Origin: Planctomycetota bacterium
Lineage (GTDB): Bacteria; Planctomycetota; UBA1135; UBA2386
Reading direction: 5' to 3'
NCBI GenBank assembly: GCA_947501605.1
Contig: CANMWZ010000018.1
Span: 12,780 to 76,779, forward strand
Length of the DNA stretch: 64,000 bases
Part shown: in pieces, positions 16,302-50,029 of the stretch
Layout of the letters: the number at the start of each line of letters is the position of its first letter
Numbering within the stretch: the stretch's first letter is position 1
The notes under the pieces: generated by a model
Told to the model about the DNA's origin: nothing
Seen by the model: the letters and a program-made list of their open reading frames with translations, nothing else
Database searches by the model: none
Made by a program: the position numbers and the translations under genes

Positions 16302-17411
16302 ATGCGTCATCTCACTATCCCCACGGGGCTCCTTCTCAGTCTTTCCGTTGCCAGCATGTCGGTCTCGGCTGCGGCCCAAGTCTTGGCCAGCGACAGCTTT
16401 TCCTATGCCGGGGCGCTGACGGCCAACGGTTGGGCGGCACACAGCGGTGCTGGCGCGAAGCTGATTCTCTCGAATGGCTCCATCGCGACGTTGAACCAGG
16501 GCCCGGGCTCGGGCGAAGACGTCAACTTGGCGTTCCCCGCGCTGACCGCGACCGACACGGTGTTCGCCTCGTTCACGTTGAATGTGCCGTCGGGCACCCC
16601 GGTCACGCCGCCCGCCGCCGGTCTCTACTTCGCGCACTTCAAGGACACGACGACACTGTTCCGCGCCCGCACCGGCGTCGTGGCGCCAACTGCTGGCGGC
16701 AACTTCCGTATCGCGATCCATGCCGACAACGCCAACCTCTCGCTCGGCACGTCGTGGCCGACGGAGCAGGTGTTCAATACCGACTACAAGGTCGTCATCA
16801 GCTGGAACGCGGCGACCGGTCAGTCGCAGCTGTGGATCGATCCGACGGCTGTGACGGATCCGTCGATCTCCCACACGGGCACGTTGGTCGGCACGATCAT
16901 CTCGCAGTTCGCGCTGCGTCAGGCGAGTGACTACACCGGCTTCCTCACCATCGACGACGTGCTCGTCGGCCGCACGTTCGCCGATGTCTGTGGAACTCCG
17001 GGTAGCTACACCACCTTCGGCGCCGGCTGCGCCAGCTCGGTCGGTGTCGCAACCAACACGGCGAGCCCGGTCCCCGCGATCGGTGTCACCACGGTGGTCA
17101 CGCTCTCGCCGGTGCCGAACCCCGGCGTCGGGCTGCTCCTGATCGGCTCGAGCAACACGTTCTCGAACTCGTTCGGCCCGCTGCCGCTCGACCTCACGTT
17201 CTTCGGTGCGCCTGGCTGCAGTGGTCGCGTCAGCGATGACGTCGCGCAGTTCTTCGGCATTGGTGCGGGCAGCATCAGCTTCAACGTCGGCATCCCGAAC
17301 GACCCGTTCTTCGTCGGCCTCCAGCTCTACACCCAGGGCCTCGTGTTCGAGAACGTGAACGCGCTCGGCATCGTGTTCTCGGATGCCGCGACGATGGTGA
17401 TCGGCGGTTGA
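16302..17411 (+). CDS. Secreted protein A1: signal peptide, beta-rich N-domain of unknown function and the shared C-terminal domain
   Basis: The track ORF 16005..17411 was trimmed to ATG 16302 (MRHLTIPTGLLLSLSVASMSVSAAAQ, a Sec signal). It is a paralog of 17721..18818 over its full length. The tail ...FGAGCASSVGV...GLLLIGSSN...GPLPLDLTFFGAPGCSGRVS...VGIPNDPFFVGLQLYTQGLVFENVNALGIVFSDAATMVIGG carries the shared C-terminal domain. Confidence 0.85.
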   Translation: MRHLTIPTGLLLSLSVASMSVSAAAQVLASDSFSYAGALTANGWAAHSGAGAKLILSNGSIATLNQGPGSGEDVNLAFPALTATDTVFASFTLNVPSGTPVTPPAAGLYFAHFKDTTTLFRARTGVVAPTAGGNFRIAIHADNANLSLGTSWPTEQVFNTDYKVVISWNAATGQSQLWIDPTAVTDPSISHTGTLVGTIISQFALRQASDYTGFLTIDDVLVGRTFADVCGTPGSYTTFGAGCASSVGVATNTASPVPAIGVTTVVTLSPVPNPGVGLLLIGSSNTFSNSFGPLPLDLTFFGAPGCSGRVSDDVAQFFGIGAGSISFNVGIPNDPFFVGLQLYTQGLVFENVNALGIVFSDAATMVIGG

Positions 17412-17486
17412 GCCCAAAGCGGAGAGTTGGCAACGCCTGCGTCCAACGGACGTAGGCGCACAATCGCCATACTGCGGGCCGTAGAC

Positions 17487-17640
17487 GTGGTTTCTCAAAG
17501 CGTCTGCGGCTGTGGCCGATCCCGACGGCCGATGGCTGTGTCGCGAACTCGCCGCGGAATCCACGGATCCCGCCACGAGTCCGCTCGTGGTCCTCGACTG
17601 TCGTGGCTCGGCCGCGCCCGCAGGTCCTTTGGGAAACCGC
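17487..17640 (+). repeat. Conserved ~155-nt 5' leader, copy B (upstream of paralog A2)
   Basis: See copy A. It contains a perfect local hairpin CCACGAG-TCCG-CTCGTGG that is not conserved in copy A. Confidence 0.8.
17495..17522 (+). promoter_or_regulatory. Candidate sigma-28 (FliA)-like promoter inside leader copy B
   Basis: CAAAGCGT-N11-GCCGATCC (equivalently CAAA-N15-GCCGAT), compared with the textbook TAAAGTTT-N11-GCCGATAA. It would give a ~190-nt 5' UTR before ATG 17721. Confidence 0.35.
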
Positions 17641-17720
17641 TTCTGGCGACTGCGGCCGCGCTAGAACGCCCAGTCAGCGGCCCGATCCCCTATCCTGCGT
17701 CGCTACCCAGACGATCCAGA

Positions 17721-18818
17721 ATGCGCCACTTCGCCACCACATTCCTCAGTGCGGCTCTCGCCCTTTCGACCGCCGCTTCGGCTCAGCAACTGCTGCGCGA
17801 CGACTTCGCCTACGCCGGCCCGCTGACCAGCAACGGCTGGTTTGCACACAGCTCGGGCGGCCAGCGTACCATCGTGTCGTTCGGCGACTACGCGATCTTG
17901 AGCCAGGGCACGGGCGCCGGCGAGGACCTCAGCCGCGGGTTCCCGCAGCTTGCGGCGACGGACTCGGTCTACGCCGCGTTTCGACTCAACGTGCCGTCAG
18001 GCAACGCGGTCAATCCGGCATCCGCCGGGCTCTACTTCATCCACTTCAAGGACGGTACCACGGGCTTCCGTGCGCGCACGGGTGTGCTCGCGCCGGCGTC
18101 AGGTGGTGCGTTTCGGTTGGCGATTCATGCCGACAGTGCCAATCTCGGCCTCGGCGCTGCGTGGCCATCGGATCTTGCGTTCGACACCGACTACCTGGTC
18201 GTCATCGGCTTCGATGGCGCGCTCAATCGAGCGACGCTTTGGGTCGATCCGATCACTGCAGCCTCGCCTTCGATCGGACACACCGGGACGCTGCCGACCC
18301 CGTTCGTGACCGCCATCGCGCTGCGGCAGAGCAGTGAATACACCGGCTCGCTCCGCATCGACAACCTGATCGTCGGGCGCACCTTTGTGGATGTCGCCGG
18401 CGCCGGCCGTAGCTACGTGACGTTCGGCGCGGGCTGCTCCGGCTCGGTCGGGGTTCCGTCCAACACCGCGAGCCCGCTGCCTCGCCTTGGTCGCACGACG
18501 ACGATCACCATCGGCAACGTGACGGTGCCCGCCATCGCGCTGCTGCTGGTCGGCACCAGCAACACGTTCTCGCCGTCGTTCGGTCCGCTGCCGATCGACC
18601 TCACGGCGTTTGGTGCGCCGGGCTGCTCAGGCCGCGTCAGTGATGACGTAACGCAGTTCTTCGCTCTTGGCTTTGCCGGCGTGCCCTTTGACGTGGCGAT
18701 TCCCAATGACACCTACTTCATGGGGCTGCAGCTCTACACGCAGGCACTGGTGTTCGAGAACGTGAACCCGTTGGGGCTCGTGCTCTCGGACGCTGCGACG
18801 TTCGTCATCGGCGGCTGA
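17721..18818 (+). CDS. Secreted protein A2 (paralog of A1) with the shared C-terminal domain
   Basis: The track ORF 17427..18818 was trimmed to ATG 17721 (MRHFATTFLSAALALSTAASAQQ). It is colinear with A1. The tail is ...FGAGCSGSVGV...ALLLVGTSN...GPLPIDLTAFGAPGCSGRVS...IPNDTYFMGLQLYTQALVFENVNPLGLVLSDAATFVIGG. Confidence 0.85.
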   Translation: MRHFATTFLSAALALSTAASAQQLLRDDFAYAGPLTSNGWFAHSSGGQRTIVSFGDYAILSQGTGAGEDLSRGFPQLAATDSVYAAFRLNVPSGNAVNPASAGLYFIHFKDGTTGFRARTGVLAPASGGAFRLAIHADSANLGLGAAWPSDLAFDTDYLVVIGFDGALNRATLWVDPITAASPSIGHTGTLPTPFVTAIALRQSSEYTGSLRIDNLIVGRTFVDVAGAGRSYVTFGAGCSGSVGVPSNTASPLPRLGRTTTITIGNVTVPAIALLLVGTSNTFSPSFGPLPIDLTAFGAPGCSGRVSDDVTQFFALGFAGVPFDVAIPNDTYFMGLQLYTQALVFENVNPLGLVLSDAATFVIGG

Positions 18819-18877
18819 CCGGCGCATATCGCCGACGCGCTGCAGGCGAACGCTCGTCCGCTGCAGGTGCGGAACCG

Positions 18878-23699: not shown

Positions 23700-25445
23700 T
23701 CAGATCCCGATCGTCCAACGAACGCCGTTGGAGACGCGGTAGCCAAACGCATTGGCCGTGAGGTCGTCGCTGATCGCTTGCGACATCAGTTGCACGCCGA
23801 CGAAGGCGGGCGTGTTGGGGATCGCGATCAGGTAGGTCGTGGTTGGCGCGCCGAGCGTCAGGTTGAAGTACGAGAGCAGCTCCGGCAGCGCGATGTAGGC
23901 CGTGCAGCCAGTGAGGCCGAAGCCATCGAGCGGGAAGCCGCCGGGGAGTTCGTTGCTGATCAACAAGATGCTGAAGACACCGTTGGGCAGGCTCGCGATG
24001 TTGTTGGTATCCAGCGTGTAGTTGCTGCCGATGGTCGGAACCGAGCCGGTTGGGACCGACAGGGTCAGCGGGAACACCTGGGTGCCCGGTACGGTGAGAC
24101 CATTGACGGTTGACAGGTCGGCGGCGCCGGAGTTCTGCACGTTGCCGCCGCGCGAGTATCCCGCCAGGAAGAAGCCGGTGTTCAGCGACACGTTCTGCCA
24201 GCGGATCGTGAACTGACCCGTCGGGCTGAGCGCGATCTGGACGTTGATGGGGGTCGCCGCGCCGTACTCCGGCACGTTGCGCCAGCTGATAACGAATTCG
24301 CCAGTGCCGGCGTCGAGCGCGTGCTCAACCGTGCCGCCAGAGGTCGGATCGAGGTCTTCCCACCAAGCTGCAATGCGAGCCGGTCCGCTGACGAGCACAG
24401 CAGGGTCTCCCGTGCAGCACCCGTCACCCGGATCCGTACCGCCGATGGTCAAGAAGCCGTTCGACGACACATAGATCGAGGTCTCGTTGGCGCCGTTGAA
24501 CGGGAACGCGAACGGCAAGGGGACCAAGTGCGAACTGTCATCGAGTGCCAGCAGTGGGGTTCCAGCGCCAGCGAACCACACCGGCGAAAGGCCGGGCAGC
24601 GCGATGTAGTCGTTGCCCGACGGCAAGAAGCTGAGGTTGAGGCCGCTGAGGTCGGGGGCGTTGTTGGCGCTGAACTGCTCATAGAGCGTGGGCGAAGCCG
24701 CAGCCGGGCAGCCAGCGCCGACTACGGTCGAGGTGGCGACGTTCGACGTGCACGTGACGTCGGTGACGACGTAGCCAGGGTTGGTCGGCGTGAACAGCCA
24801 CTTCGAGTTGGCGTAGGGCAGGAGCTGGCCGGGAGCACGCGTGATCACTTGGGCAAATGCGTTGGTCGCGATGTTCAGCGGGCGCGTGGCGAAGTTGACG
24901 GTCGGTGTCGCCACACCAGGACTCGCGCCGATGATCGCGGTGTTGGCCTGGAACGTCGACGTCGTGCCCAACGTGCCGTAGGCCACCGTGAAGGTGTTGT
25001 TGGCGAAGAGCGAGATCTGCATCGTGCCTGGCAACGTCGTGCCGTAGGTGTAGACGCGGATCCACGAAACGCGCGCGACGCCCGGCGTCGAGTTGTCGAA
25101 GTAGACCTGGCCGCTGCCCGCAATCGTGGGGTTGAAGTCGTTCCAGTAGGGGCAGATGCGCGCGCCGCCGGTCGCCATCTCAGCGAGCGTTGGCGAGTAG
25201 TCGCCGCCGTTCAGCGTCGACACGTTGGTGGAGCCGAGCACGAGGTAGCCGTTGGCGCACACCGAGATGCTGCTGTGGACAACACCGTTGTAGGTGAACG
25301 AGAACCCGAGGGGCAGCGGTGCCGTGACCTGGTCGTCACCGAGTGCGAGGCTGGGCCCGAAGTTGGTGTCGAAGCACGGACTCTGGGCCAACAGAGATGC
25401 AGCAAAGCTGGCTGCGAGAGCGGACGAGAGAAGGCTGCGGAGCAT
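23700..25445 (-). CDS. Secreted two-module NIDO-like protein with the shared C-terminal domain, paralog 1 of 5
   Basis: The track ORF 23700..25535 was trimmed to ATG 25445 (AGGAG upstream; MLRSLLSSALAASFAASLLAQSPCFD). Module 1: LGDDQVTAPLPLGFSFTYNGVVHSSISVCANGYLVLG...ARICPYWNDFNP. Module 2: DDSSHLVPLPFAFPFNGANETSIYVSSNGFLTIGGTDPGDGCC...RIAAWWEDLDP. Tail: ...ILLISNELPGGFPLDGFGLTGCTAYIALPE...IPNTPAFVGVQLMSQAISDDLTANAFGYRVSNGVRWTIGI. Confidence 0.85.
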   Translation of the reverse strand: MLRSLLSSALAASFAASLLAQSPCFDTNFGPSLALGDDQVTAPLPLGFSFTYNGVVHSSISVCANGYLVLGSTNVSTLNGGDYSPTLAEMATGGARICPYWNDFNPTIAGSGQVYFDNSTPGVARVSWIRVYTYGTTLPGTMQISLFANNTFTVAYGTLGTTSTFQANTAIIGASPGVATPTVNFATRPLNIATNAFAQVITRAPGQLLPYANSKWLFTPTNPGYVVTDVTCTSNVATSTVVGAGCPAAASPTLYEQFSANNAPDLSGLNLSFLPSGNDYIALPGLSPVWFAGAGTPLLALDDSSHLVPLPFAFPFNGANETSIYVSSNGFLTIGGTDPGDGCCTGDPAVLVSGPARIAAWWEDLDPTSGGTVEHALDAGTGEFVISWRNVPEYGAATPINVQIALSPTGQFTIRWQNVSLNTGFFLAGYSRGGNVQNSGAADLSTVNGLTVPGTQVFPLTLSVPTGSVPTIGSNYTLDTNNIASLPNGVFSILLISNELPGGFPLDGFGLTGCTAYIALPELLSYFNLTLGAPTTTYLIAIPNTPAFVGVQLMSQAISDDLTANAFGYRVSNGVRWTIGI

Positions 25446-25580
25446 GGGACTCCTGAGAGGGGTGTATGGCCAGTGGGGGACAATGGGAGCTGGCCGGGGT
25501 GGATTGCGACGAACGCTGTCCCCTTGGGGTTCCATCTTGCCATACCCGCGATCCCGTGCCTGTGGGGTTGCAGCACAAAT

Positions 25581-25621
25581 GACGACGCCCGGCCGACCGC
25601 GAGGGTCGTCCGGGCGTCGTC
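25581..25621 (-). terminator. Strong hairpin 19 nt downstream of paralog 2
   Basis: The 12-nt arms GACGACGCCCGG and CCGGGCGTCGTC are exact reverse complements, with further inner pairing CGACC/GGTCG. On the minus strand it is followed by ATTTGTG. Confidence 0.6.
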
Positions 25622-25639
25622 GTTCGGGCGCGAGCTAGA

Positions 25640-27400
25640 TCACAGACCGAGGATCCAGCGGACGCCGTTCGACACGCGGTAGCCGAAGGCATTTGCGGTC
25701 AGGTCATCGCTGATCGCCTGCGACATGAGCGTCACGCCGGCGAAGGCGGGGACGTTTGGGATCGGGATCGAGAACGTCGTGGTTGGCGCGCCAAGCGTCA
25801 GGTTGAAGTACGACAGCAGCTCTGGCAGCGCGATGTAGGCCGTGCAGCCAGTGAGGCCGAAGCCATCGAGCGGGAAGCCGCCGGGGAACTCGGTGCTGAT
25901 CAACAGGATGCAGAAGATGCCGTTCGGCAGGCTCTGGATGTTGGTCGCATCGAGCGTCATGGTCTGGCCGAGCTGCGGCAGGCCCGTCGGGGTCAGTTCG
26001 AGCGGAACCGAGATCAGGCCGCTGACCAGCTGGCCGCTGACCGCCGAAATGTCGGTGACACCCGGATCCCCCGTGTTGCTGCCGGCGGAGTAGCCGGAGA
26101 TCCACGTGTGACCTTGGTCGCTCACCGACTGCCAACGGATGGTGAACAGGCCGCTCGGGTTCAGCGCGATCTGGAAGGTCTCTAGCGGGCCTGCAAAGAA
26201 CTCGGGGACCTGATTCCAGGTGATGACGTACTCTCCAGTCGCGACGTCGAAATCGGCGAAGACGCCGCCGCCGGGGCCGGCGCCCGGAGGATAGATGTCC
26301 GCCCAGAAGCCCGAAATGCGCGGTGGCCCGGAGAGCATCGTCAAGACGTCGCCTGAGCAGCAGCCGCTGAACGGATCCGTAGCACCCAGCGTGAGGAAGC
26401 CGTTCGACGAGACGTAGATCTGGGTCTCGACCCCGCCGTTGTATGGGAACGGGAACGGCAACGTGATCTGGATCGTCTCGTCGTCGTTCATCAGGAGGTT
26501 GTTGGTGAACCCGGCGTACCACGTCGGGGCCACGTTCGGCAGGGCTAGGTAGTCGATAGCCCCCGAGGGCACGAAGCTCAGGTTGAGGCCGCTCAGGTCC
26601 GGCTGGTTGCCGAAGGTGTCGAAGATCTCGTAGAGCGACGGGCCGCTGCGACCAGGGCAGCCGCTACCGACGACCTCCGTCGAAGCGGGGCCGGGGAACG
26701 AGTTCGGCGTGCAGGTGAGGTCCGAGACTACGTAGCCTGGGGACGTCGGCGACCACAGCATCTTGAAGCCGAAGGGGATCGGCAGGCCGGGCGTTGTGCC
26801 GACGAAATCGCTGAACGAGTTCGAGGCGGTGACGACGGGCCGGGTCGCCAGCGAGATGGGATTCGAGACCGCGCCGAAGCCCGGGCTCGCGCCGATCAGG
26901 TAGTCCGTGCTGAACGCACCGATCTCGAGGGTCGGGCCGTAGGCGATGGTGACGCTGTTGCTGGCGTCGAGTGTGAGCTGGAAGCTGTTCGGCGTCGTGG
27001 TTGCGAATGCGAACACGCCAGCCCAAGAGATTCGGGCGACACCGGGCGTCGAGTTGTCGAAGTAGACGTGGCCGCTGCCGGTGGCACCTGGATTGAGGTC
27101 GGTCCAAAAGGCGCAGATGCGTGGATCACCGGCCAGCAGCTCCGCTTCGGTCGGGGTGTAATCGCCGCCGAACTGAGGGTTGACGCTGCCGAGCCAGATG
27201 TACCCATTCGAGCACACCTGAATGTCCGTGTAGGTGACGCCGTTGTAGGTGAAGTTGAAGCCGAGCGGCAACGGTGCCGACGTGTCGTCGTCGAAGAGAT
27301 TCAGGTCGGTGCCGATCGTGAGATCGAAGCACGGGCCCTGCGCAGGGAGCGTCGCGAAGAGAGTCGTCGCGATCGCGGCAGTCAGAATGCTGCGAAGCAT
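25640..27400 (-). CDS. Secreted two-module NIDO-like protein with the shared C-terminal domain, paralog 2 of 5
   Basis: Trimmed to ATG 27400 (MLRSILTAAIATTLFATLPAQGPCFD). Same architecture as paralog 1: DDDTSAPLPLGFNFTYNGVTYTDIQVCSNGYIWLG; ITLPFPFPYNGGVETQIYVSSNGFLTLGATDPFSGCC; tail ...RVSNGVRWILGL. Confidence 0.85.
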   Translation of the reverse strand: MLRSILTAAIATTLFATLPAQGPCFDLTIGTDLNLFDDDTSAPLPLGFNFTYNGVTYTDIQVCSNGYIWLGSVNPQFGGDYTPTEAELLAGDPRICAFWTDLNPGATGSGHVYFDNSTPGVARISWAGVFAFATTTPNSFQLTLDASNSVTIAYGPTLEIGAFSTDYLIGASPGFGAVSNPISLATRPVVTASNSFSDFVGTTPGLPIPFGFKMLWSPTSPGYVVSDLTCTPNSFPGPASTEVVGSGCPGRSGPSLYEIFDTFGNQPDLSGLNLSFVPSGAIDYLALPNVAPTWYAGFTNNLLMNDDETIQITLPFPFPYNGGVETQIYVSSNGFLTLGATDPFSGCCSGDVLTMLSGPPRISGFWADIYPPGAGPGGGVFADFDVATGEYVITWNQVPEFFAGPLETFQIALNPSGLFTIRWQSVSDQGHTWISGYSAGSNTGDPGVTDISAVSGQLVSGLISVPLELTPTGLPQLGQTMTLDATNIQSLPNGIFCILLISTEFPGGFPLDGFGLTGCTAYIALPELLSYFNLTLGAPTTTFSIPIPNVPAFAGVTLMSQAISDDLTANAFGYRVSNGVRWILGL

Positions 27401-27526
27401 GGGTTCCTTGAAAGATGGGGGGCGTTCACCTCTGCGACGTCGGGAGCCGTGCGCAGGTGCAGTCGATCCTAGAGATAATGGCACACTTAGCGATGAGGCC
27501 ACCGGCGGCAGTGTGTCGCCAAAATG

Positions 27527-27568
27527 CAAAACGCCCGGGGCACCGGCGAGCGGGCCACGGGCGTTTTG
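27527..27568 (-). terminator. Rho-independent-type terminator downstream of paralog 3
   Basis: The arms CAAAACGCCCG (27527-27537) and CGGGCGTTTTG (27558-27568) are exact reverse complements. On the minus strand the stem is followed by CATTTTGG (U-run). Confidence 0.65.
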
Positions 27569-27616
27569 CGGACGGGCGCGCGAGCCGCGTCCGTCACCGT
27601 CCTCAGAGCGCTTGGC

Positions 27617-29383
27617 TCAGAGGCCGAAGTTCCAGCGGAGACCGTTCGACACGCGGTAGCCGAAGGCGTTCGCGGTGAGGTCGTCGCTGACGGCCTGCGA
27701 CATCAGGCTGACGCCGTAGAAGGCGTTGTCGTTCGGGATGCTGATCGGCCACGACGTGGTCGCTGCGCCCAGCGTCAAGTTGAAGAACGACGCGATCTCT
27801 GGCAGCGCGACGTAGGCCGTGCAACCTGTGAGGCCGAAGCCGTCGAGCGGGAAGCCGCCCGGGACTTCGGTGCTGATCAGCAGGATGCAGAACACGCCGT
27901 TCGGCAGGGTCTGGACGCCGGTCGCATTGACCGTGAACGTGCCGCCGACTTGCGGGCGCGAGTTCAGGGCCGCCGCGATCGACAGCGGCGTGACCGTCGC
28001 CGGGATGTTGTTCGAGTAGTAGCCCAACGGCTGCGTCAGCACCAAGTAGTCGAGGCCGGTGTTGAACATCACGACTTCGAGGCCAGTCATGTCGATCGGC
28101 GACGCGTTGTTCGCGAACGTCTGGTACATCGTCGTGGCGTTGACGCCGGCGACGCCCGAGATGTCCGTGACACCCGGATCCGCAGCGCCGCCACCGACCG
28201 AGAAGCCGGTGAGCGCCACGCGCGTGGCGCTGACGATGCCGACGTTCAGGAAGCGCATCGTGACGGTGCCCGTCGGCGACAGCGCGATCTGGAAGTTGTT
28301 CGCCGGCTGCGGGGTGGCGCCGAACTCACCAGCGGAGACCCAGTTGATCACGTACTCGCCCGTGATCGCATCGACGTAGGCGTTGACTTCGCCGTTGCCG
28401 GTCGCCGACAGGTTGAGGTCCTGCCAGAAGGCCGCGAGGCGCGTCGGGCCCGTAAGCAGCGTGGCGGGGCTACCGGCGCAGCAGCCAGAGCCTGGGTTGG
28501 TCGTGCCGAGGGTCAGGAAGCCGTTCGACGAGACGACGATGTTGTTGAACGTGCCCGTCGGTGCCGGGAACGCGAACGGCAGGGTGAGTGCATGCGTGGT
28601 GTCGTCACCGGCGTTGAGGGCCGGGCTCACAAGGGCTGGGCAACCGACGCCGACGACTGCCGAGCTGGCCGGGGGCGGCAGCTGGTTCGGCGTGCAGGTG
28701 ACATCCGAGATCACGAAGCCGGGGTTGGTCGGGGTCCACAGCATCTTGAAGTTGCCGTAGGGGATCGGGACGCCGTTCACTGCCGGAATCGCTTCCGAGA
28801 ACGTGTTCGACGTCGAGATGATCGGGCGCGTGGCGAACGAGACCGGGTTGGCCACCGAGGCAGCACCGGGGCTGGCGCCGATGAGGACGGTCGTGTTCAG
28901 CGTGCCGGGAACGGCCGCGGCGCCGTAGGTGACCGTGACGCTGTTGCTGGCATCGAAGCTGACCTGGAAGTTGATGCCAGTCGTCGTGCCGAAGGCGAAC
29001 ACACCGGCCCAAGTGACCGTGGCGACGCCCGGCGTCGAGTTGTCGAACCAGACTTTGCCGCTGCCGACCGCGCCCGGGTTGAAGTCGCTCCAGAGCGGGC
29101 AGATGCGCGGCGCACCGGCGAGCAGTTCGGCCTCGGTCGGCGAGAAGTCACCGCCGGCGATGCCGGTCGTGCCGAGCCAGATGTAGCCGTTCGAGCACAC
29201 GCTTACCTGCGTGTAGGCGACACCGTTGTAGGTGAACGTGAAGCCGAGGTTCTGGGCCGCCGACGTGGAGTCGTCGATCAGCGCGAGATCGGTGCCGAGA
29301 GGGAGGCTGAAGCACGGGGCCTGGGCGCCGAGTGAGGCGGCGAGGGCCGTTGCAACGGCGGTCGTGAACAAACTACGAATCAT
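27617..29383 (-). CDS. Secreted two-module NIDO-like protein with the shared C-terminal domain, paralog 3 of 5
   Basis: Trimmed to ATG 29383 (MIRSLFTTAVATALAASLGAQAPCFS). It has IDDSTSAAQNLGFTFTYNGVAYTQVSVCSNGYIWLG; LTLPFAFPAPTGTFNNIVVSSNGFLTLGTTNPGSGCC; tail ...RVSNGLRWNFGL. The middle region is the most divergent of the five. Confidence 0.85.
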   Translation of the reverse strand: MIRSLFTTAVATALAASLGAQAPCFSLPLGTDLALIDDSTSAAQNLGFTFTYNGVAYTQVSVCSNGYIWLGTTGIAGGDFSPTEAELLAGAPRICPLWSDFNPGAVGSGKVWFDNSTPGVATVTWAGVFAFGTTTGINFQVSFDASNSVTVTYGAAAVPGTLNTTVLIGASPGAASVANPVSFATRPIISTSNTFSEAIPAVNGVPIPYGNFKMLWTPTNPGFVISDVTCTPNQLPPPASSAVVGVGCPALVSPALNAGDDTTHALTLPFAFPAPTGTFNNIVVSSNGFLTLGTTNPGSGCCAGSPATLLTGPTRLAAFWQDLNLSATGNGEVNAYVDAITGEYVINWVSAGEFGATPQPANNFQIALSPTGTVTMRFLNVGIVSATRVALTGFSVGGGAADPGVTDISGVAGVNATTMYQTFANNASPIDMTGLEVVMFNTGLDYLVLTQPLGYYSNNIPATVTPLSIAAALNSRPQVGGTFTVNATGVQTLPNGVFCILLISTEVPGGFPLDGFGLTGCTAYVALPEIASFFNLTLGAATTSWPISIPNDNAFYGVSLMSQAVSDDLTANAFGYRVSNGLRWNFGL

Positions 29384-29564: not shown

Positions 29565-29603
29565 CAGGACGCAGGGCGCAGCAGGCGCGCCCGATCTGGC
29601 CGA

Positions 29604-35199: not shown

Positions 35200-38190
35200 T
35201 CACGGAACGAACAGACTCTTGTGCTGGTTCGACAGCGTGAAGCTGCCGTCCGGCTCGAACACCAACACCTGCGTGTAGAGCAGGATGCCCTGCGCGGGCA
35301 TGCCCGGGAACGACGGGAAGTTCAGGCTGTAGAGCCCGGTCGGACCTGAGAAGTCAGTGAAGAAATCGAGCGTGCCACCGACCGAGGCGGTCGGGAAACC
35401 AGGAGCGCTCGTCGGGCCGCCAGTGTCACCGAGCACCAGCACGAACAACTTCGCGGCACCGTTGGTGGTGATTGCGATGTTGACGTTCTGGCTGGCGCTG
35501 GACTGTTCCGGCGTCATCTGCAGAGTGGCCGCGAGCGGCGGCACGGTACGCGTGCCGAGTTCGAGGTCGTCGATCGTCCAGCCGCCGAGTTGCAGACCGC
35601 CGTCCGTGATCAGGCGGAACTCGACCTGCACCGATGGATTGTTGTCTGCCATCGGCAGCGCGTACTCGAAGGTCTGCCACGACGTGTCGATCAAGTTGCC
35701 GGTGGTCGGGTTCTGCCAGACGAGCACCCCGTTCACGTTGATCTGGGCCTGATCGAAGACGGCTTCTTCGACCGTGAGCCAGCGCTTGAAGCGCAGCACG
35801 ACGCCCGAGCGGCCGGTGCAGTCGATGATCGGTGACCGCACGAACTCGTTGATGCTCGCCGGGTAGGCACCATTGGCCGTGCCGGTGCCGAGGTCGGTCG
35901 CCACCGCGCGCGTGCCGGTCGGAGCGCCGAGCGGATCGGCCCAGGCGATGCCGAGCGAAGTGCCCAACTTGCCGTTTGGCGCGCCGAACTGCCAGTCGAC
36001 CGTGCCGGTCGTGCTGGAGCGGCCAGTGGTCCAACCCGCGGGTGTGCCAGCACCTTCGAAGCCCTGCGAGAAGAACTGGACGTAGGTGCCACCGAGGCTG
36101 CCGCTCACCGTGTAGGTGAGTTCGCCGGTCAGCGGGAAGCGACCTGTTCCAGTCGTGCTCGTGGCTTCGACGTGGTAGCTGATCTGGCCCGAGGACAGGC
36201 CCGGCAGCATCGAGCGGTAACCCGTCAAGGTGCCGTCCGTCACCATGTTGCGCGTCTGCGTGGGCCCACCGGCGGCCGAGTAGACAAGGCGCATCTGCGT
36301 GATCGCGCCGAGGTCGTTGGCGATGCCCTGGGCGCTGACGAGGCGCGAGTTGTAGCGGTCGCCCGTGTTCGTCAGTGCCGTGTGTACGACGGTCACTGGC
36401 TGGAACGTGGGGAACGGGATCGCCTTGATGTTGGCCGCGGCGCTGAGTTCGGTGTAGTGCGGGACGCCGTTGAACAGGTTGCCGTCGTCGTCATCCGCGA
36501 TGAACACTTCACGCACGGCGTCGACGCGCGTCTGCGCGTTGGCGACCAACGTGCCGATGACGATGTCGTTCGTCAGTGCGATTGCTGCAGGGCTGCCAAG
36601 GCTCGTGCGCAGTTGCTGACGCAGTTGCCAGGCAAAGCCCATCCACACCTGTCCCGCTGTGTGCGGCGAAGTGCCGGAGGCCGGCCACAGCAGCGTGTTG
36701 TTGCCACTGCGCAGCGCGACGTTCGCGGTCTGGAAGCCACTGCCGAGCGACGGGCTGTCGACGAGGTAGAGGCCGACGACGTCGCCCCAGCCTTCGCTCA
36801 AGCCTTCGGCGTTCGAGTTGAAGATGCCACCGTAGCGCTCGTCGATGCCGTGGCCCCATTCGTGGGCGATGACCGTCGAGAATGCCGTGTTCGCGCAACC
36901 GCCGCCCTGGGCGTAGAAGTTGATCGTGTTGCCCGTGTAGTAGGCATTGCACGTCGACGCGATGTTGACCGTCGGCGTGATGCCGCTTGCGGTCGCGAGT
37001 TGCGCCGAGTTGCCGAGGATCGAGCGGCAGAACTCGTTGGTCCGGTCGATCCAGTAGCTGGTCGTGACGTCCGAGGCCTGTTCGGGCGTGTCCGTCGAGG
37101 CGCCCAGCTGGACCGTGTTCGGCACGCCTGGCGTGATCGTGAAGGTGCCGCCAGTCGACTGGCCCCCGATCAGCGTGGCGTGGTGGCGACCGTCGAGCGC
37201 GCCGATCGTGATGTTGACCGGTACTGCGATGTCGACCGTGAACTGGCCGTTGTTGTCCGTCGTCACGTTGCCGATGCCCGGAACGTTGACCACGAGGCCG
37301 GGGATTCCGGCGTTGCTCAGCGCGCTGAAGGCGTCGTTGCCGGTGCGGGTCCACTGCTGGACCGTCACCGTCGTCTGGACGAGGGCGCTGCCGTCCTTGC
37401 CCTTGATCGAGGCCGCGAGGCGAGCCGTCTCGGAAAGGCTGCAATTGGCCATGCCGCACTCGTGCTTGTCGGTGCGGAAATGGAGGACGTTGCCGTTCTT
37501 GGCGTCGATGTAGTAGCGGCCGATCGGGCCGAGGCCTTCGGCGTCGACGTTGCTGACCGGGACTTCCCAGGCCAGGTAGATCGGTGCCGCGTCCTGAGCT
37601 TCCACGTCGCCCCAGATGACGAGCCGCAGTTCGCGCGGCTTGCCGGGCTGGGTGACGCCGGTCGGCTGCTGGCCGAGGGCCATCCAGGCACGCGCAGTCG
37701 CCTCGGCTTCTGCGATCGTCGGCATGACGTCGAAGTTGGCGGGGACTTGCCAAGCGGTGCTGCCGATCATGGCGAGCACGCCCTTCATGTTGATGCGGAC
37801 GTCGGCGCGCCCGTCGATGCAGGGCAGACTGCGGAAGTACTGGTCAAAGGTGAACGACCAAGTGCGACCCATGCGCGCACCGATGCTCTCGCGAAACTCG
37901 GAGACGCCGAGGCCGAGAAGGTCACCGTGCTCGCCAAGGGCGAGGTTGGCGTGGCGGCGGGCCTCTTCGATCGAGTTGCCGCGCCAACCGGCGAGCGTGG
38001 CGCCGGAGCCGTAGATGGCGCGTGGGGTGTTGGTTGCAACTGTCCATTGCGCCAGCCATTGGCCGCCGAGCCGTTCGCTCAGTGCTGGGAAAGGCATGGG
38101 CTGGAAGTTCTTCGAAAGGGGCACCTGCTTGGTGTCCTGTGCCATGGCGAAGGACGCCAAGATCAGACTGAGAAGCGGCGTGAAACGCAT
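35200..38190 (-). CDS. Secreted zinc metalloprotease, M36 (fungalysin)-like, with extra beta domains and a divergent copy of the shared C-terminal domain
   Basis: Trimmed to Met21 (ATG 38190; MRFTPLLSLILASFAMAQD signal). An FTP/PepSY-like propeptide region is present. The zinc site is VIAHEWGHGIDE followed by EGLSEGWGD (the HExxH...EGWxD pattern of M36). A later jelly-roll-like region (WQFGAPNG...GGWTIDDLELG) follows. The tail is ...KLFVLVLGDTGG...FPSFPGMPAQGILLYTQVLVFEPDGSFTLSNQHKSLFVP. Confidence 0.8.
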   Translation of the reverse strand: MRFTPLLSLILASFAMAQDTKQVPLSKNFQPMPFPALSERLGGQWLAQWTVATNTPRAIYGSGATLAGWRGNSIEEARRHANLALGEHGDLLGLGVSEFRESIGARMGRTWSFTFDQYFRSLPCIDGRADVRINMKGVLAMIGSTAWQVPANFDVMPTIAEAEATARAWMALGQQPTGVTQPGKPRELRLVIWGDVEAQDAAPIYLAWEVPVSNVDAEGLGPIGRYYIDAKNGNVLHFRTDKHECGMANCSLSETARLAASIKGKDGSALVQTTVTVQQWTRTGNDAFSALSNAGIPGLVVNVPGIGNVTTDNNGQFTVDIAVPVNITIGALDGRHHATLIGGQSTGGTFTITPGVPNTVQLGASTDTPEQASDVTTSYWIDRTNEFCRSILGNSAQLATASGITPTVNIASTCNAYYTGNTINFYAQGGGCANTAFSTVIAHEWGHGIDERYGGIFNSNAEGLSEGWGDVVGLYLVDSPSLGSGFQTANVALRSGNNTLLWPASGTSPHTAGQVWMGFAWQLRQQLRTSLGSPAAIALTNDIVIGTLVANAQTRVDAVREVFIADDDDGNLFNGVPHYTELSAAANIKAIPFPTFQPVTVVHTALTNTGDRYNSRLVSAQGIANDLGAITQMRLVYSAAGGPTQTRNMVTDGTLTGYRSMLPGLSSGQISYHVEATSTTGTGRFPLTGELTYTVSGSLGGTYVQFFSQGFEGAGTPAGWTTGRSSTTGTVDWQFGAPNGKLGTSLGIAWADPLGAPTGTRAVATDLGTGTANGAYPASINEFVRSPIIDCTGRSGVVLRFKRWLTVEEAVFDQAQINVNGVLVWQNPTTGNLIDTSWQTFEYALPMADNNPSVQVEFRLITDGGLQLGGWTIDDLELGTRTVPPLAATLQMTPEQSSASQNVNIAITTNGAAKLFVLVLGDTGGPTSAPGFPTASVGGTLDFFTDFSGPTGLYSLNFPSFPGMPAQGILLYTQVLVFEPDGSFTLSNQHKSLFVP

Positions 38191-47148: not shown

Positions 47149-47221
47149 GGGCGGGCAGGATAGGGGCCCGCCGCGCGCATGGAAGAGCGGGCAGCGGGTT
47201 GCGTCGGCAGCCCGCGGTGCG

Positions 47222-50029
47222 TCACTGCGCGCGCAAGTTCGTCTGCAGGCCGTCCGACGACGACAGGCCTTGCGGCTGGCAGGCGTCGAACCACGCGAAC
47301 TGCGTGTAGATCGGCAAGCCGTCGTAGAGCAGCAGGCTCGGCAGCGGCAGCAACCGTGCGGCCGTGCCCTGCGCGTCAGCCGCGAGGAACTCAACCCACG
47401 CCGAGGGGTTGGCGAGATCGACCAGCACGGTGACTCCGGCGATCGGCACGTTTGCCGAGGCGAAGCCGAGTGCGAAGAAGCCGGCGCCGCTTGCGGGGGC
47501 GTTGTCGCCGACAAGGGCAAACGTCGCGCTGCCGAGGCGGGCTTCGCTGTTGGCGCGAATGCGCGGTGCACCTGGACAACCGTTGGTCGCGATGCCGTAC
47601 TGGATCGACTGCTCGTCGCCATCCAGTGCGTTGTCGAGGTCGCGATCGCGCGCCATGCGCTGGCCCGCACCCGGCGGCACGCCGGTGAAGGTCAGCGCGG
47701 CATTGCCTGCCTGCGCCAGTGCGACGAGCTGCGTGCGCGTCTGCGCCACGAAGCCCGTGGCGTTGCCCTGGAAGGAGCCAAGTGAGGTCGAGTAGAGCAG
47801 GCCGCGGACGACGCTCGAAACCGTGCCTTGGGCGACGACGTCAAGGTCTCCGGCGATCGCGCGCGCGATCAGCAGATCCAGGTCGGCAAGGGCCGCCGCG
47901 TTGGTCGCGTTCGATTGGTCGATCGTGACCTGCAGGCCGACGGCCGGCGCCGTGCCGGTGTCCATGGCCATGACGAAGGGGACGATCTTCGACATCACGT
48001 TCGCGCCCAGCGCCGAGCGCCACGGGTTGAACACTGGCAGGGCGAGGAAGTCCGCGACGGTGCCCACCGAGCCATCGTGCGTGTAGCCAAAGCCGCTCTT
48101 CTGCGGACCCGCCGTCCGCGTCAAGCCGACCTTGCGGTACATGTTGCGCAACTGTGCGACCTTCATCTGCTGCGGCTCTTGCAGGATCGAGCCAGTGACA
48201 ACCTGTCGGTTCGTGCCGGTGAGGTTGCCGACGTCGTGGGTGTGGCAGGTGTTGCAGCTGATCGTGACGAATCCGCCAAGGTTGCTGGCGGTCGCGTCAA
48301 ACGCCACCTGGCCTTCGGACTCGCTGGCGCCAGCCGGCGTGGTGCGCAGCGTGCGCGTCTTCAGCTGGTTCGGGTTCGGCGGGAACGCGATGCTGGTCGC
48401 GAACTGCGCGTAGAGGTTCATGTCTGCAGTCGACAGCAGCGAGCCGCCCATCAGCGAGTTGAAGGCGCCATTGAACGCCTGGAAGTTGACGCGATCGCCG
48501 CGCCAGTGGAACGGCGCAGTTGCCGACAGACCCTTCAGAGTCTGCGTCGTCATCGCGCCCTTCATCGGGTGGAACGACGACAGCGGCAGAAGGTTGAACG
48601 GGCTGACGGTGTTCACCGGCGCCGAAGCCATGGTGCCGCTCGGATCGCCGAGGTCCCATGAGAGGCCGTCGAGGTCGCCATCGGTGTGGCACGAAGCGCA
48701 GCTCATCGTGCCGTTACCGGCGAGCTTGGCGTCGTAGAGGAACTTGCGGCCGTCGCGGATATTGGTCGGCGTCGGGTCGTAGGAGCCGAGCGCCACTTCG
48801 CCTAGCAGTGCATTGCTGCTGGTGTCGATCACACTGATCGACGACGAGAGCTTGTTGTGCACGTAGAGGCGCTGGGTTGCTGTTGCCAGTGCGAGGCCAC
48901 GCGGGCCGCGCTTGTTGATGGTGTTGATGAGCGCGCCCGGCGTGCCGCCCATTTCGATGCGCGCGAGCACATTGCCACTGCCGTCGAGCACGCCGATGCG
49001 GTCGGTGCCCTGCGCGGCGACGTAGATGCGACCGACGGCGGCGTCGATGGCGACGCCGTAGGGTTCGGCAAGGGCCGTCGACAGCGCTGCGTTGTTCGGC
49101 AGCAATGCGTAGTTGATGCCCGGGTTGAGGTCGATCGGCGTGACCACCGGCGAGGCGCCCGTGGTGATGCGCGTGATCCGGCTGTCGATCGCGTGGCCCT
49201 TGAGCACCGGCTCGAACGCGACCAGGTTGCGCGCTTCGGTATTGGCAACCCAGAGATCGCCGGTCAGAGGGTTCACAGCGATGCCGGTGTTGGTGGTCCC
49301 GACGGCGCGGAAGTTGCGCGTGACAGTCAGCGACGCGACGTCGATTTCGGCGATGTCGTTGTCAGGCAACGTGAACGGGATCTGCGCGGCCCACGCTGGG
49401 TCGTCGGCGCGGACGATCTTGCTGGTCAGCGGCGCGGCCGGCAGCGACGTATTGGTGGGCGCCGGTTGTGACTGGTTTGGAACCGTGGTGGTGCCGTTAC
49501 CCGAGCGCTGCACGACGGCGTAGACCTTGGTTCCGGCAGCGTTGACCGCGAGGTTGCGCGGGTCCTTGCCGAATACCGCGACAGAGCCCAGCGACGCGCG
49601 AGACGTCGCATCGAACACGGCGACGCGATCGCTGGCTGCCGCTGTCACGAAGGCTTTGCCGCCCGCGAACACGACGTCCGATGGCTCGTCGGCGACTTGC
49701 AGAGTGGCGACGACGCGACCCTGAGCCAGCGACACGATGCTGACCGAGTCAGAGAGGTGGTTGACAACCCAGACTTCGTCGCTGGTGCGCGGATTGACGG
49801 ATACTGGCTCGAGGCCGACGGGGATCTCGTGCAGCAGCACCGGCGCGTTCGGGTTCTGCAGGCTGTAGACGCAGAGCCGTTGGTCGGCAGTGTGCGCTGC
49901 AAACAGCCGCGTGCCATCGGCGGAGAGGCGGATCGAGCTGACGATCGGACTCTCGTAGTTGACGAACGACTGCGCATTGGCCGCGACCGTCAGGAGCACT
50001 GCTGCCGCGAGGACATGGGATCGATGCAT
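47222..50029 (-). CDS. Secreted beta-propeller / di-haem cytochrome c peroxidase-like protein with a divergent copy of the shared C-terminal domain
   Basis: Trimmed to ATG 50029 (MHRSHVLAAAVLLTVAANAQS signal). It has N-terminal YVTN-like propeller repeats (VPVGLEPVSVNP..., LQVADEPSDVVFA...) and two CxxCH haem c sites (SCASCHTDG and SCNTCHTHD). The tail is YGIATNGCPGAPRI...LGSATFALVGDNAPASGAGFFALGFAS...LLLYDGLPIYTQFAWFDACQPQGLSSSDGLQTNLRAQ. Confidence 0.8.
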   Translation of the reverse strand: MHRSHVLAAAVLLTVAANAQSFVNYESPIVSSIRLSADGTRLFAAHTADQRLCVYSLQNPNAPVLLHEIPVGLEPVSVNPRTSDEVWVVNHLSDSVSIVSLAQGRVVATLQVADEPSDVVFAGGKAFVTAAASDRVAVFDATSRASLGSVAVFGKDPRNLAVNAAGTKVYAVVQRSGNGTTTVPNQSQPAPTNTSLPAAPLTSKIVRADDPAWAAQIPFTLPDNDIAEIDVASLTVTRNFRAVGTTNTGIAVNPLTGDLWVANTEARNLVAFEPVLKGHAIDSRITRITTGASPVVTPIDLNPGINYALLPNNAALSTALAEPYGVAIDAAVGRIYVAAQGTDRIGVLDGSGNVLARIEMGGTPGALINTINKRGPRGLALATATQRLYVHNKLSSSISVIDTSSNALLGEVALGSYDPTPTNIRDGRKFLYDAKLAGNGTMSCASCHTDGDLDGLSWDLGDPSGTMASAPVNTVSPFNLLPLSSFHPMKGAMTTQTLKGLSATAPFHWRGDRVNFQAFNGAFNSLMGGSLLSTADMNLYAQFATSIAFPPNPNQLKTRTLRTTPAGASESEGQVAFDATASNLGGFVTISCNTCHTHDVGNLTGTNRQVVTGSILQEPQQMKVAQLRNMYRKVGLTRTAGPQKSGFGYTHDGSVGTVADFLALPVFNPWRSALGANVMSKIVPFVMAMDTGTAPAVGLQVTIDQSNATNAAALADLDLLIARAIAGDLDVVAQGTVSSVVRGLLYSTSLGSFQGNATGFVAQTRTQLVALAQAGNAALTFTGVPPGAGQRMARDRDLDNALDGDEQSIQYGIATNGCPGAPRIRANSEARLGSATFALVGDNAPASGAGFFALGFASANVPIAGVTVLVDLANPSAWVEFLAADAQGTAARLLPLPSLLLYDGLPIYTQFAWFDACQPQGLSSSDGLQTNLRAQ

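What the first reader, a model, noticed from the sequence alone, without database searches (positions are those of the whole stretch)
16302..50029. A ~100-120 aa C-terminal domain shared by nine otherwise unrelated secreted proteins: candidate unnamed sorting, anchoring or assembly tag
Nine genes in this window end in a recognisably related beta-rich tail, although their N-terminal cargo differs.
- Carriers: two unknown beta-rich proteins (16302-17411, 17721-18818); five NIDO-like proteins (23700-33333); an M36-like metalloprotease (35200-38190); a propeller/di-haem protein (47222-50029).
- Recurrent pattern read from the alignable tails: [FY]G.GC.G..G.P (present in A1/A2 and the haem protein), then P.(L/I)G..(F/T)...., then a hydrophobic strand (LLLIG / ILLIS / FVLVLG / FFALGF), then PLD(L/G)..(F/L)G..GC, then (I/F)P(N/S)...(F)(V/A/L)G(V/L).L(Y/M)(T/S)Q..(V/I)(F/S)(D/E), and an (S)(N/D)(G/A) motif close to the C-terminus.
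- The tails always sit at the extreme C-terminus of signal-peptide proteins.
- They lack a terminal hydrophobic helix and basic tail, so they are not PEP-CTERM or LPXTG types.
- They do not match my memory of the T9SS CTD consensus.
- I see no sortase, exosortase or PorU-like gene in the window.
This distribution (variable enzyme or adhesin head plus an invariant C-terminal module) is what known sorting or cell-surface attachment domains look like.
Basis: partly seen in the sequence, partly recalled or inferred. Interest (0 to 1): 0.85.

Follow-up and report, generated by a model that had tools for sequence, protein, structure and literature searches.

The report
Unnamed C-terminal domain on planctomycete secreted proteins
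Nine secreted proteins in this window from an uncultured planctomycete end in the same ~130-residue beta-sandwich domain, which has no name in Pfam or NCBIfam, occurs on thousands of otherwise unrelated secreted proteins in metagenomes, and is distributed the way a protein-sorting or surface-anchoring tag would be, although its function is untested.

Summary
The window is a Planctomycetota MAG contig (GCA_947504505.1). Nine Sec-signal-peptide proteins there end in a related ~125-135 aa all-beta tail.

- **Support for the nine tails:** the A1/A2, N1-N5 and haem-protein tails are statistically solid. The M36 tail is a probable but degenerate member (hhalign 67-76%, C-terminal half only, both cysteines lost).
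- **No named match:** no Pfam or NCBIfam model hits any tail, even at E<=10. The PDB has no sequence relative.
- **Size of the family:** a profile search of 1.84 billion representative proteins finds 8,601 clusters.
- **Position and cargo:** in 161 of 166 proteins examined the domain ends within 5 residues of the stop codon, usually as [IVL]-G-X-stop. It is single-copy and sits behind unrelated cargo: PKD, Kelch and other propellers, LamG, C-type lectin, sulfatase, M12/M43/M36 peptidases.
- **Hosts:** every named host is a Planctomycetota MAG.
- **Structure:** AlphaFold gives a confident beta sandwich (pLDDT 95) with no significant Foldseek match in the PDB and no T9SS CTD among the top hits.
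- **Selection:** in the N1-N5 array the tail is more conserved than the cargo.

The distribution is what a sorting or anchoring tag would show. No processing or transport partner was found, so the function remains inferred.

The parts
16302..17411 (+). Carrier A1 (369 aa): signal peptide, unknown beta-rich head, C-terminal tail at 16998-17408
   Evidence: Translation. Tail scores E 8e-46 against a profile of 141 external tails. No Pfam or NCBIfam family on the whole protein.
17721..18818 (+). Carrier A2 (365 aa), paralogue of A1; tail at 18408-18815
   Evidence: E 1.7e-47. The gene call of 365 aa is confirmed in the deposited assemblies.
23700..25445 (-). Carrier N1 (581 aa), first of five tandem paralogues; tail at 23703-24113
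   Evidence: E 5e-26. Gene call of 581 aa. Tail 74-86% identical among N1-N5, against 49-61% for the head.
25640..27400 (-). Carrier N2 (586 aa); tail at 25643-26044
   Evidence: (E 1.9e-28).
27617..29383 (-). Carrier N3 (588 aa); tail at 27620-28009
   Evidence: (E 3.3e-27).
29604..31358 (-). Carrier N4 (584 aa); tail at 29607-29984
   Evidence: (E 8.4e-26).
31579..33333 (-). Carrier N5 (584 aa); tail at 31582-31989
   Evidence: E 2.6e-25. Gene call of 584 aa with a 'faint' NIDO hit on record.
35200..38190 (-). Carrier M36 (996 aa): M36/M4-like metallopeptidase, MAM-like region, then a probable degenerate tail at about 35203-35565
   Evidence: Sub-threshold peptidase hits around HExxH. For the tail: no hmmsearch hit; hhalign 67% (E 5e-5) and 76% (E 2.3e-5, C-terminal 45 columns). 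Both conserved Cys are absent (alignment).
47222..50029 (-). Carrier HEM (935 aa): beta-propeller, di-haem CCP/MauG-like region, tail at 47225-47602
   Evidence: Pfam CCP_MauG, Lactonase and SGL. Tail recruited independently; E 1e-7 and hhalign 95.5%.

Best explanation
The nine tails are copies of one previously unnamed ~125-135 aa all-beta domain.

**Consensus:** ..AGYGfFG.GCaGs.G.P.l.a...P.lG.T......nlP...a....G.S.T.S..GPLPlDl...GaPGC..rVS.D....l.G....A...l.iPN.P.l.G..fY.QAlVlDp.aNAlG.v.SDAa...[IV]G-X-stop.

**What is shown.**
- It is the shared C-terminal module of a large part of the Sec-exported proteome in an uncultured Planctomycetota lineage.
- It is homologous across eight of the nine window proteins, and probably the ninth.
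- It is strictly terminal and single-copy.
- It sits on unrelated cargo.
- It folds as a confident beta sandwich.
- It is more conserved than its cargo.

**What is inferred.**
- After Sec export and signal-peptide cleavage, the folded domain is recognised by one common partner. That partner would be either an outer-membrane export or sorting machine, or a cell-envelope component. It would carry the cargo across the outer membrane, hold it on the cell surface, or both.
- The domain is probably stapled by a disulfide between the two near-invariant cysteines.
- This would make it a functional analogue, not a homologue, of the T9SS C-terminal domain of Bacteroidota.
- The best-conserved motif (GPLP.DL...GAPGC..RVS.D) lies in the segment between the two long beta-hairpins of the model. 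I propose it as the recognition surface.
For: **Homology.** A-N E 1e-7 to 2.5e-9. HEM E 6e-5 in an independent iteration, then hhalign 95.5%.

**Size of the family.** 8,601 representative clusters at E<=1e-3 and 2,272 at E<=1e-10, out of 1.84e9 proteins.

**Position.** 156 of 166 proteins end 0-2 residues after the domain and 161 of 166 within 5. Only one copy is internal. In all window and locus ORFs the domain abuts the stop codon. The penultimate Gly is 95% conserved and is followed by one variable residue.

**Signal peptides.** 9 of 9 in the window. 65 of 80 complete carriers match small-x-small-Q by a strict pattern, and most of the rest do by eye.

**Cargo diversity in 56 full-length carriers.** PKD 13, Kelch 9, DUF5122 propeller 4, LamG 3, C-type lectin 2, and one each of sulfatase, BNR/sortilin, reprolysin, M43 and DUF4394. 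The window adds M36 and propeller/di-haem.

**Expansion and clustering.** 9 carriers in 64 kb. 39 of 219 plausible ORFs in the window and related loci. 2-4 carriers in each 20 kb locus examined from one MAG.

**Constraint.** N1-N5 tails are 74-86% identical against 49-61% for the heads. Identical-codon use is similar in both regions, which indicates selection and not gene conversion.

**Structure.** AF2 with a 46-sequence alignment gives pLDDT 95.1 and pTM 0.88, all-beta.

**Lineage.** All 8 genome hits and every named cluster member are Planctomycetota MAGs. One contig is labelled UBA2386.

**Analogy.** NCBIfam holds M36 peptidase families defined by rhombosortase or T9SS dependence, so that cargo type usually carries a C-terminal sorting signal.
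Against: - No partner, peptidase or transporter was identified. The genes that recur next to carriers only reflect synteny of the A1/A2 locus.
- The window's two unassigned membrane proteins have no homologues near other carriers.
- There is no evidence of cleavage or attachment.
- The strongest conservation lies in a loop-rich segment with polar residues (D, N, Q, S, D). This would equally suit a metal- or ligand-binding site of a binding module.
- The domain is longer than known secretion CTDs.
- One protein carries it internally (P0154), and four carry 11-14-residue extensions.
- Only the top 150 of the 8,601 hits could be inspected.
Confidence: 0.5

Rival explanations
1. The tail is a ligand-binding module (CBM- or lectin-like, possibly Ca2+-dependent). 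It would tether secreted enzymes and adhesins to an external substrate or to prey or particle surfaces, and would play no part in export or sorting.
For: It has a beta-sandwich fold. The conserved polar and Gly/Pro loop motif GPLP.DL...GAPGC..RVS.D, the invariant Q and the SDA motif could form a binding site. The cargo includes sulfatase, peptidases and lectins, which is typical of polymer-degrading exoproteomes.
Against: No CBM, lectin or Ig-like HMM matches. Binding modules are commonly internal, N-terminal or tandem, whereas this domain is single-copy and ends 0-2 residues before the stop in 156 of 166 proteins. Most cargo is non-catalytic (PKD, Kelch, propellers). Foldseek finds no significant CBM match.
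Confidence: 0.25
2. The tail is a C-terminal pro-domain or intramolecular chaperone, like the PPC pre-peptidase C-terminal domain. It would help folding or keep cargo inactive during transit, and would then be clipped off.
For: It sits at the C-terminus of secreted hydrolases such as M36, M12, M43 and sulfatase.
Against: There is no PPC (PF04151) hit at any threshold. Most carriers are not enzymes. A general folding aid would not be expected on PKD, Kelch and lectin proteins. It also would not be expected to be more conserved than every cargo.
Confidence: 0.1
3. The tail is an assembly or oligomerisation domain. It would link different surface proteins into a common lattice or fibre, for example a disulfide-linked proteinaceous surface layer.
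For: There are two near-invariant cysteines (92% and 99%). Many co-encoded paralogues exist. The free C-terminus is strictly conserved.
Against: The Cys pair is most simply intramolecular. N-type and HEM tails move one Cys elsewhere in the domain, and the M36 tail has none. No multimer evidence was obtained. Enzymes such as a sulfatase are odd lattice components.
Confidence: 0.1
4. The similarity is chance or compositional: high-GC, Gly/Ala/Thr-rich beta proteins that merely look alike.
For: The genome is 65% GC. The tails are rich in G, A, S and T.
Against: E-values reach 1e-47 in the window and 1e-44 in a 1.84e9-protein library. The motifs stay in register. No other ORF in the six-frame translation matches. 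The AF2 model is confident.
Confidence: 0.01

Closest known systems
T9SS C-terminal domain (CTD; TIGR04183 / Pfam Por_Secre_tail PF18962) of Bacteroidota
   Same: It is a folded all-beta domain, not a TM-helix signal, at the extreme C-terminus of Sec-exported proteins. It occurs in one copy per protein on very diverse cargo (peptidases, adhesins, PKD and propeller proteins), with many paralogues per genome, and is restricted to one lineage. In both lineages the predicted signal-peptidase site is followed by Gln (PMC5837995).
   Different: There is no sequence match at E<=10 and no CTD among the top 50 Foldseek PDB hits. The domain is 125-135 aa, against roughly 70-100 aa for the CTD by my recollection. 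It has a conserved Cys pair. [quoted passage not shown] No SprA, PorU or PorV was seen, and cleavage is unknown.
PEP-CTERM/exosortase, LPXTG/sortase, GlyGly-CTERM/rhombosortase and MYXO-CTERM signals
   Same: They mark a large and varied set of secreted proteins at the C-terminus. The cargo classes overlap; for example, NCBIfam defines a rhombosortase-dependent M36 family.
   Different: Those signals are about 20-35 aa and tripartite: motif, TM helix, basic cluster. This is a globular 130 aa beta domain ending ...[IVL]-G-X, with no hydrophobic helix.
PPC (pre-peptidase C-terminal) domain, PF04151
   Same: It is a beta-sandwich at the C-terminus of secreted bacterial peptidases.
   Different: There is no HMM match. 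This domain is not limited to peptidases, and no evidence of removal exists.
ML / NPC2 / GM2-activator lipid-binding beta-cups (nearest Foldseek PDB hits)
   Same: They are disulfide-containing secreted beta sandwiches of similar size.
   Different: The matches are not significant: E >= 1.6e-3, TM 0.32-0.41, rmsd about 8-13 A, 7-12% identity. I treat this as a generic beta-sandwich resemblance.

Membership tests
T9SS CTD (TIGR04183 / PF18962; type B TIGR04131) | Significant match to the family HMMs | tested here: not met
   There is no Pfam or NCBIfam hit on 17 tails at E<=10. None covers the tail in 4 window proteins or in 56 full-length carriers.
T9SS CTD (TIGR04183 / PF18962; type B TIGR04131) | Single copy at the extreme C-terminus of Sec-signal-peptide proteins with diverse cargo | tested here: met
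   161 of 166 proteins end within 5 residues of the domain. Signal peptides are present. PKD, Kelch, LamG, lectin, sulfatase and peptidase cargo are found.
T9SS CTD (TIGR04183 / PF18962; type B TIGR04131) | Fold superposes on solved CTD structures (Ig-like seven-strand sandwich) | tested here: not met
T9SS CTD (TIGR04183 / PF18962; type B TIGR04131) | Host genome encodes the T9SS core (SprA translocon, PorU/PorV, PorK-N) | not testable with these tools
   Only 64 kb of the genome and loci of up to about 23 kb were available. None of these families appeared in the window genes scanned. A whole-genome HMM scan is needed.
T9SS CTD (TIGR04183 / PF18962; type B TIGR04131) | The CTD is cleaved off and the cargo is released or attached to the surface | not testable with these tools
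   This requires proteomics.
Tripartite C-terminal sorting signals (PEP-CTERM, LPXTG, GlyGly-CTERM, MYXO-CTERM, PGF-CTERM) | Short signature motif, then a hydrophobic TM helix, then a basic cluster at the C-terminus | tested here: not met
   All nine proteins and 141 external tails end in a beta strand followed by [IVL]-G-X. There is no terminal helix or Arg/Lys cluster, and no NCBIfam sorting-signal model hit.
PPC pre-peptidase C-terminal domain (PF04151) | HMM match; association with secreted peptidases | tested here: not met
   There is no hit. Only a minority of carriers are peptidases.
Carbohydrate-binding modules, dockerins and named Ig-like domains (Pfam) | HMM match to a named family; frequent internal or tandem arrangement | tested here: not met
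   No Pfam family covers the tail. A tail-profile search gave no additional domain hit on any window carrier, and 1 internal case was seen in 166 proteins.
ML (MD-2-related lipid-recognition) domain | Structural superposition with TM > 0.5 and a conserved disulfide pattern | tested here: not met
   These are the top Foldseek hits (2ag2, 6r4n, 1nep), but with TM 0.32-0.41 and rmsd about 8-13 A. There is no Pfam E1_DerP2_DerF2 hit.

The most novel reading that the evidence does not exclude
The tail is the export or attachment signal of an undescribed outer-membrane protein secretion or sorting system in an uncultured Planctomycetota lineage. That system would be a convergent counterpart of the Bacteroidota T9SS with an unrelated CTD. 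It would sit in a lineage whose Sec substrates also appear to follow a Bacteroidetes-like 'Q-rule' (Gln at +1 of the signal-peptidase site).
Probability: 0.3. Interest if true: 0.9.

Novelty: new variant of a known kind. Interest (0 to 1): 0.65.

Why it matters
How Planctomycetota move their large exoproteomes across the outer membrane and display them on the cell surface is poorly understood.

- **A large unnamed family.** It comprises 8,601 clusters at 50% identity. It marks hundreds of kinds of secreted cargo, is strictly C-terminal and is more conserved than the cargo. That is the signature which led to the discovery of sortase, exosortase, rhombosortase and T9SS substrates.
- **Immediate practical use.** Naming it with an HMM would annotate thousands of 'hypothetical' or 'PKD domain-containing' proteins. 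It would also define the surface and secreted proteome of this lineage.
- **A route to the machinery.** It would give a handle for finding the cognate machinery by phylogenetic profiling.

If the domain turns out to be a binding module instead, it is still a new, structurally distinct domain family of ecological relevance in freshwater and soil metagenomes.

Tried and rejected
- **Named domains.** Pfam and NCBIfam were scanned on whole proteins, on tails alone at E<=10 and on 56 external carriers. Nothing covers the tail. A PDB sequence profile search gave only noise, E>=0.7.
- **Word-indexed homologue search.** It returned only 12-13 fragmentary hits even with a 22-sequence alignment, and 4 for the M36 tail. 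It gave little beyond a few fragmentary sequences used as alignment seeds, so the exhaustive representative search was used instead.
- **First AF2 run.** With 17 sequences it was mediocre (pLDDT 66), and its Foldseek hits were generic. It was superseded by the 46-sequence run.
- **Partner search.** ORFs from the window plus 26 related loci were clustered all-against-all. The only recurrent non-carrier families are the syntenic flagellar, YCII, AhpC-like and MetH neighbours of the A1/A2 locus. Homologues of the window's unassigned membrane proteins, propeller and VWA protein are absent from the eight genome loci L001-L008. Neighbourhoods of P0121 and P0169 show nothing suggestive.
- **Gene conversion as the cause of tail conservation in N1-N5.** Rejected, because identical-codon use among identical residues is similar in head and tail.
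- **A conserved linker or cleavage motif upstream of the tail.** None was found. The apparent upstream motif belongs to the commonest cargo family.
- **Literature.** Searches for a described planctomycete C-terminal sorting domain found nothing relevant. I could not verify my recollection that UBA2386 corresponds to the Saltatorellus/OM190 clade.

Full report
**Context.** The window is 64-67% GC. It carries flagellar genes (fliF, fliG, fliI, fliM), metH and other housekeeping genes. An exact look-up of the MetH protein places it on NCBI GCA_947504505.1 (CANNHV010000012.1) and on several ENA metagenome assemblies. Relatives found through the tail are all Planctomycetota MAGs.

**The observation.** Translating the nine ORFs shows that each starts with a Sec-type signal peptide. 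The gene boundaries agree with deposited gene calls: 365, 581, 584, 996 and 935 aa.

**Statistics inside the window (684 six-frame ORFs).**
- An HMM of the N tails alone finds A1 and A2 at E 1e-7 and 6e-7.
- An HMM of A1/A2 alone finds four N tails at E 2.5e-9 to 2.6e-5, and N5 only at E 0.02.
- No tenth ORF matches any profile.
- The haem-protein tail is not found by these small profiles. It is recruited in the second search round (E 6e-5, full length, residues 957-1077) when a profile seeded only with A/N tails is iterated over the window plus related loci.
- A profile of 141 external tails that contains no HEM- or M36-type sequence scores the haem-protein tail at E 1e-7. hhalign gives 95.5% (E 1.6e-8, 114 columns).
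- The M36 tail never gives an hmmsearch hit. hhalign gives 19%, 67% over 96 columns and 76% over the C-terminal 45 columns.
- The M36 tail keeps the LVLG strand, the (I/F)P(N/S) turn, G..LYTQ.LVFE and the SN motif. It lacks both cysteines and the GAPGC hairpin.
- I therefore accept eight tails as homologous and the M36 tail as a probable degenerate member.

**Is it a named domain?** No.
- Pfam-A and NCBIfam give nothing on the tails in whole-protein scans.
- They give nothing on 17 isolated tails at E<=10.
- No family covers the tail in 56 external full-length carriers.
- A profile search of all PDB sequences gives only noise.
- NCBI's pipeline names members 'hypothetical', 'PKD domain-containing' or 'right-handed parallel beta-helix repeat-containing', that is, after the cargo only.

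**How big is the family?** The word-indexed search reached only a dozen fragments. The exhaustive HMMER scan of 1.84 billion representatives (one per 50%-identity cluster) found 8,601 proteins at E<=1e-3 and 2,272 at E<=1e-10.

**Position of the domain.**
- In the 166 sequences I could inspect, the domain ends 0-2 residues before the protein's end in 156 and within 5 residues in 161.
- Four proteins have 11-14-residue extensions.
- One protein (P0154: C-type lectin, tail, NHL-like repeats) carries the domain internally.
- In the window and in 8 genome loci, every instance abuts the stop codon, apart from one with a 32-residue extension.

**Family consensus.** ..y..fG.GCaGs.g.p.l.a...P.lG.t......nlP...a....G.s.t.s..gpLPldl...GaPGC..rVspd....l.g....a...l.iPn.p.l.G..fy.Qa.vlDp.aNalG.v.SdAa....G.
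- The two Cys are present in 92% and 99% of tails.
- There is an invariant Gln and two 99% Pro.
- A 95% penultimate Gly is followed by a single variable residue.
- No linker or cleavage motif is conserved upstream.

**Cargo and signal peptides.** Among 56 full-length carriers the cargo is as follows:

| Cargo | Carriers |
|---|---|
| PKD | 13 |
| Kelch propeller | 9 |
| DUF5122 propeller | 4 |
| LamG | 3 |
| C-type lectin | 2 |
| Sulfatase, BNR/sortilin-like, reprolysin M12B, M43, DUF4394 | 1 each |

The window adds an M36/M4-like peptidase and a propeller/di-haem protein. Complete carriers have N-terminal signal peptides.

**Clustering of carriers.**
- There are nine in this 64 kb window.
- There are 2-4 in each of three loci of about 20 kb from one MAG.
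- 39 of 219 plausible ORFs in the window and related loci are carriers.

**Structure.**
- With a 17-sequence alignment AF2 was unconvincing (pLDDT 66).
- With 46 diverse tails it gives pLDDT 95.1 and pTM 0.88. The model is an all-beta domain built from short N-terminal strands, two long hairpins (residues 30-49 and 81-97) and two C-terminal strands.
- The most conserved motif sits in the loop-rich segment between the hairpins.
- Foldseek against the PDB finds nothing at E<=1e-3. The best hits are GM2-activator, NPC2, LaX325 and NIS1 at TM 0.3-0.45, and no T9SS CTD is in the top 50.

**Selection.** In the N1-N5 tandem array the last 100 residues are 74-86% identical, against 49-61% for the rest. 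The fraction of identical codons among identical residues is similar in both parts: 0.53-0.77 in the tail and 0.60-0.72 in the head. The tail is therefore conserved by purifying selection and not by recent gene conversion. That is consistent with all paralogues having to fit one common partner.

**Search for a partner.**
- Pfam scans of the window's other genes show no sortase-, exosortase-, rhombosortase- or PorU-like family.
- Clustering ORFs from the window and 26 loci shows only the syntenic neighbours of the A1/A2 locus (flagellar genes, YCII, AhpC-like, MetH) as recurrent non-carriers.
- Two unassigned polytopic membrane proteins flank the M36 gene. One has a weak GT-C/PMT_2 hit at E 0.016. 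Neither has a homologue in the eight genome loci L001-L008.
- No machinery is identified, so the mechanism remains an inference.

**Interpretation.** The features shown are:
- a folded domain;
- strictly terminal, with a constrained free end;
- single-copy;
- behind a Sec signal peptide;
- on unrelated cargo;
- massively paralogous and lineage-restricted;
- more conserved than the cargo.

These are the features that define protein-sorting signals. Among known signals they are matched best by the T9SS CTD, which is also a beta domain and not a TM-helix signal. Homology to the T9SS CTD was tested and not found. [quoted passage not shown]

I therefore propose a functional analogue. After Sec export the disulfide-stapled domain would be recognised by a common partner that exports the cargo across the outer membrane, retains it at the outer membrane, or both (confidence about 0.5). 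Rivals:

| Rival | Confidence |
|---|---|
| Substrate- or surface-binding module; favoured by the conserved polar loop, disfavoured by strict terminality and single copy | 0.25 |
| PPC-like pro-domain | 0.1 |
| Assembly or oligomerisation domain | 0.1 |

**Side observation.** Nearly all carriers have Gln immediately after the predicted signal-peptidase site (A-x-A|Q). So do most other predicted Sec substrates in the window and the related loci. This mirrors the 'Q-rule', which was described as Bacteroidetes-specific and as phylogenetically coincident with T9SS (PMC5837995). It is suggestive of a parallel in envelope biology, but it is not evidence for the tail's function.

**Verdict.**
- This is a new domain family, and most likely a new variant of the C-terminal sorting or anchoring domain concept in a phylum where none of this type is described.

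Noticed in passing
window signal peptides of all nine carriers; also 41311-42429(-), 60536-61555(+), 62792-64000(+); loci L003-L029: The predicted signal-peptidase I sites are almost always followed by Gln (AAA|QV, ASA|QQ, LLA|QS, AMA|QD, ANA|QS, ATA|QE, IVA|QE, TPA|QV). A strict pattern matches 65 of 80 complete external carriers, most of the rest by eye, and most non-carrier secreted ORFs. This resembles the 'Q-rule' reported as Bacteroidetes-specific and co-occurring with T9SS (PMC5837995). It may imply N-terminal pyroglutamate and a glutaminyl cyclase in this planctomycete lineage.
   Followed up: partly
window 33474-35090 (-): A 538 aa polytopic membrane protein lies between the M36 gene and the N5-N1 array. 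It has only a weak PMT_2 (GT-C glycosyltransferase) hit, E 0.016, below the cut-off. It could glycosylate neighbouring secreted proteins. No homologue was found in the eight genome loci L001-L008.
   Followed up: partly
window 38472-39806 (+): A 444 aa polytopic membrane protein is divergently transcribed from the M36 gene. It has no Pfam family.
   Followed up: partly
window 23700-33333 (-): Five tandem paralogues (N1-N5) lie in the same orientation, separated by spacers of roughly 50-220 bp. The heads are 49-61% identical and the tails 74-86%. The head has no Pfam family beyond a 'faint' NIDO record on N5. Similar heads occur in metagenome proteins P0021, P0022 and P0049.
   Followed up: partly
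window 16302-18818 (+) and loci L001, L002, L017, L018, L022: The position of the A1/A2-type gene is syntenic in related MAGs: after the flagellar operon and a YCII-like gene, and before an AhpC/TSA-like gene and metH. The A-type head (about 230 aa, beta-rich) has no family assignment.
   Followed up: partly
protein P0154 (metagenome, 571 aa): This is the only internal copy of the domain seen: C-type lectin, then the tail at 148-283, then about 290 aa of NHL-like repeats. It may be a gene fusion, a missed stop or a true exception.
   Followed up: no
protein P0007 (metagenome, 214 aa): An IS/transposase-like N-terminal fragment (…HWRIENCLHYVRDVTLGEDACR…) is fused in frame to the C-terminal two-thirds of a tail. 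This is probably an IS insertion into a carrier gene.
   Followed up: no
many external carriers of about 690-710 aa (e.g. P0028, P0033, P0057; loci L004, L005, L008): The commonest architecture is a signal peptide, an unassigned ~230 aa N-terminal domain (…VPNGYA..EGNS.N.YPW…), two PKD domains, another unassigned beta domain ending …PR.WNG.LHY, and then the tail.
   Followed up: no
locus L013 record name: The depositor labelled one carrier-bearing 111 kb contig 'Planctomycetota_UBA2386'. GenBank titles of other carrier MAGs say 'Brocadiaceae', which may be a loose automatic label. The exact class of the lineage was not resolved.
   Followed up: partly
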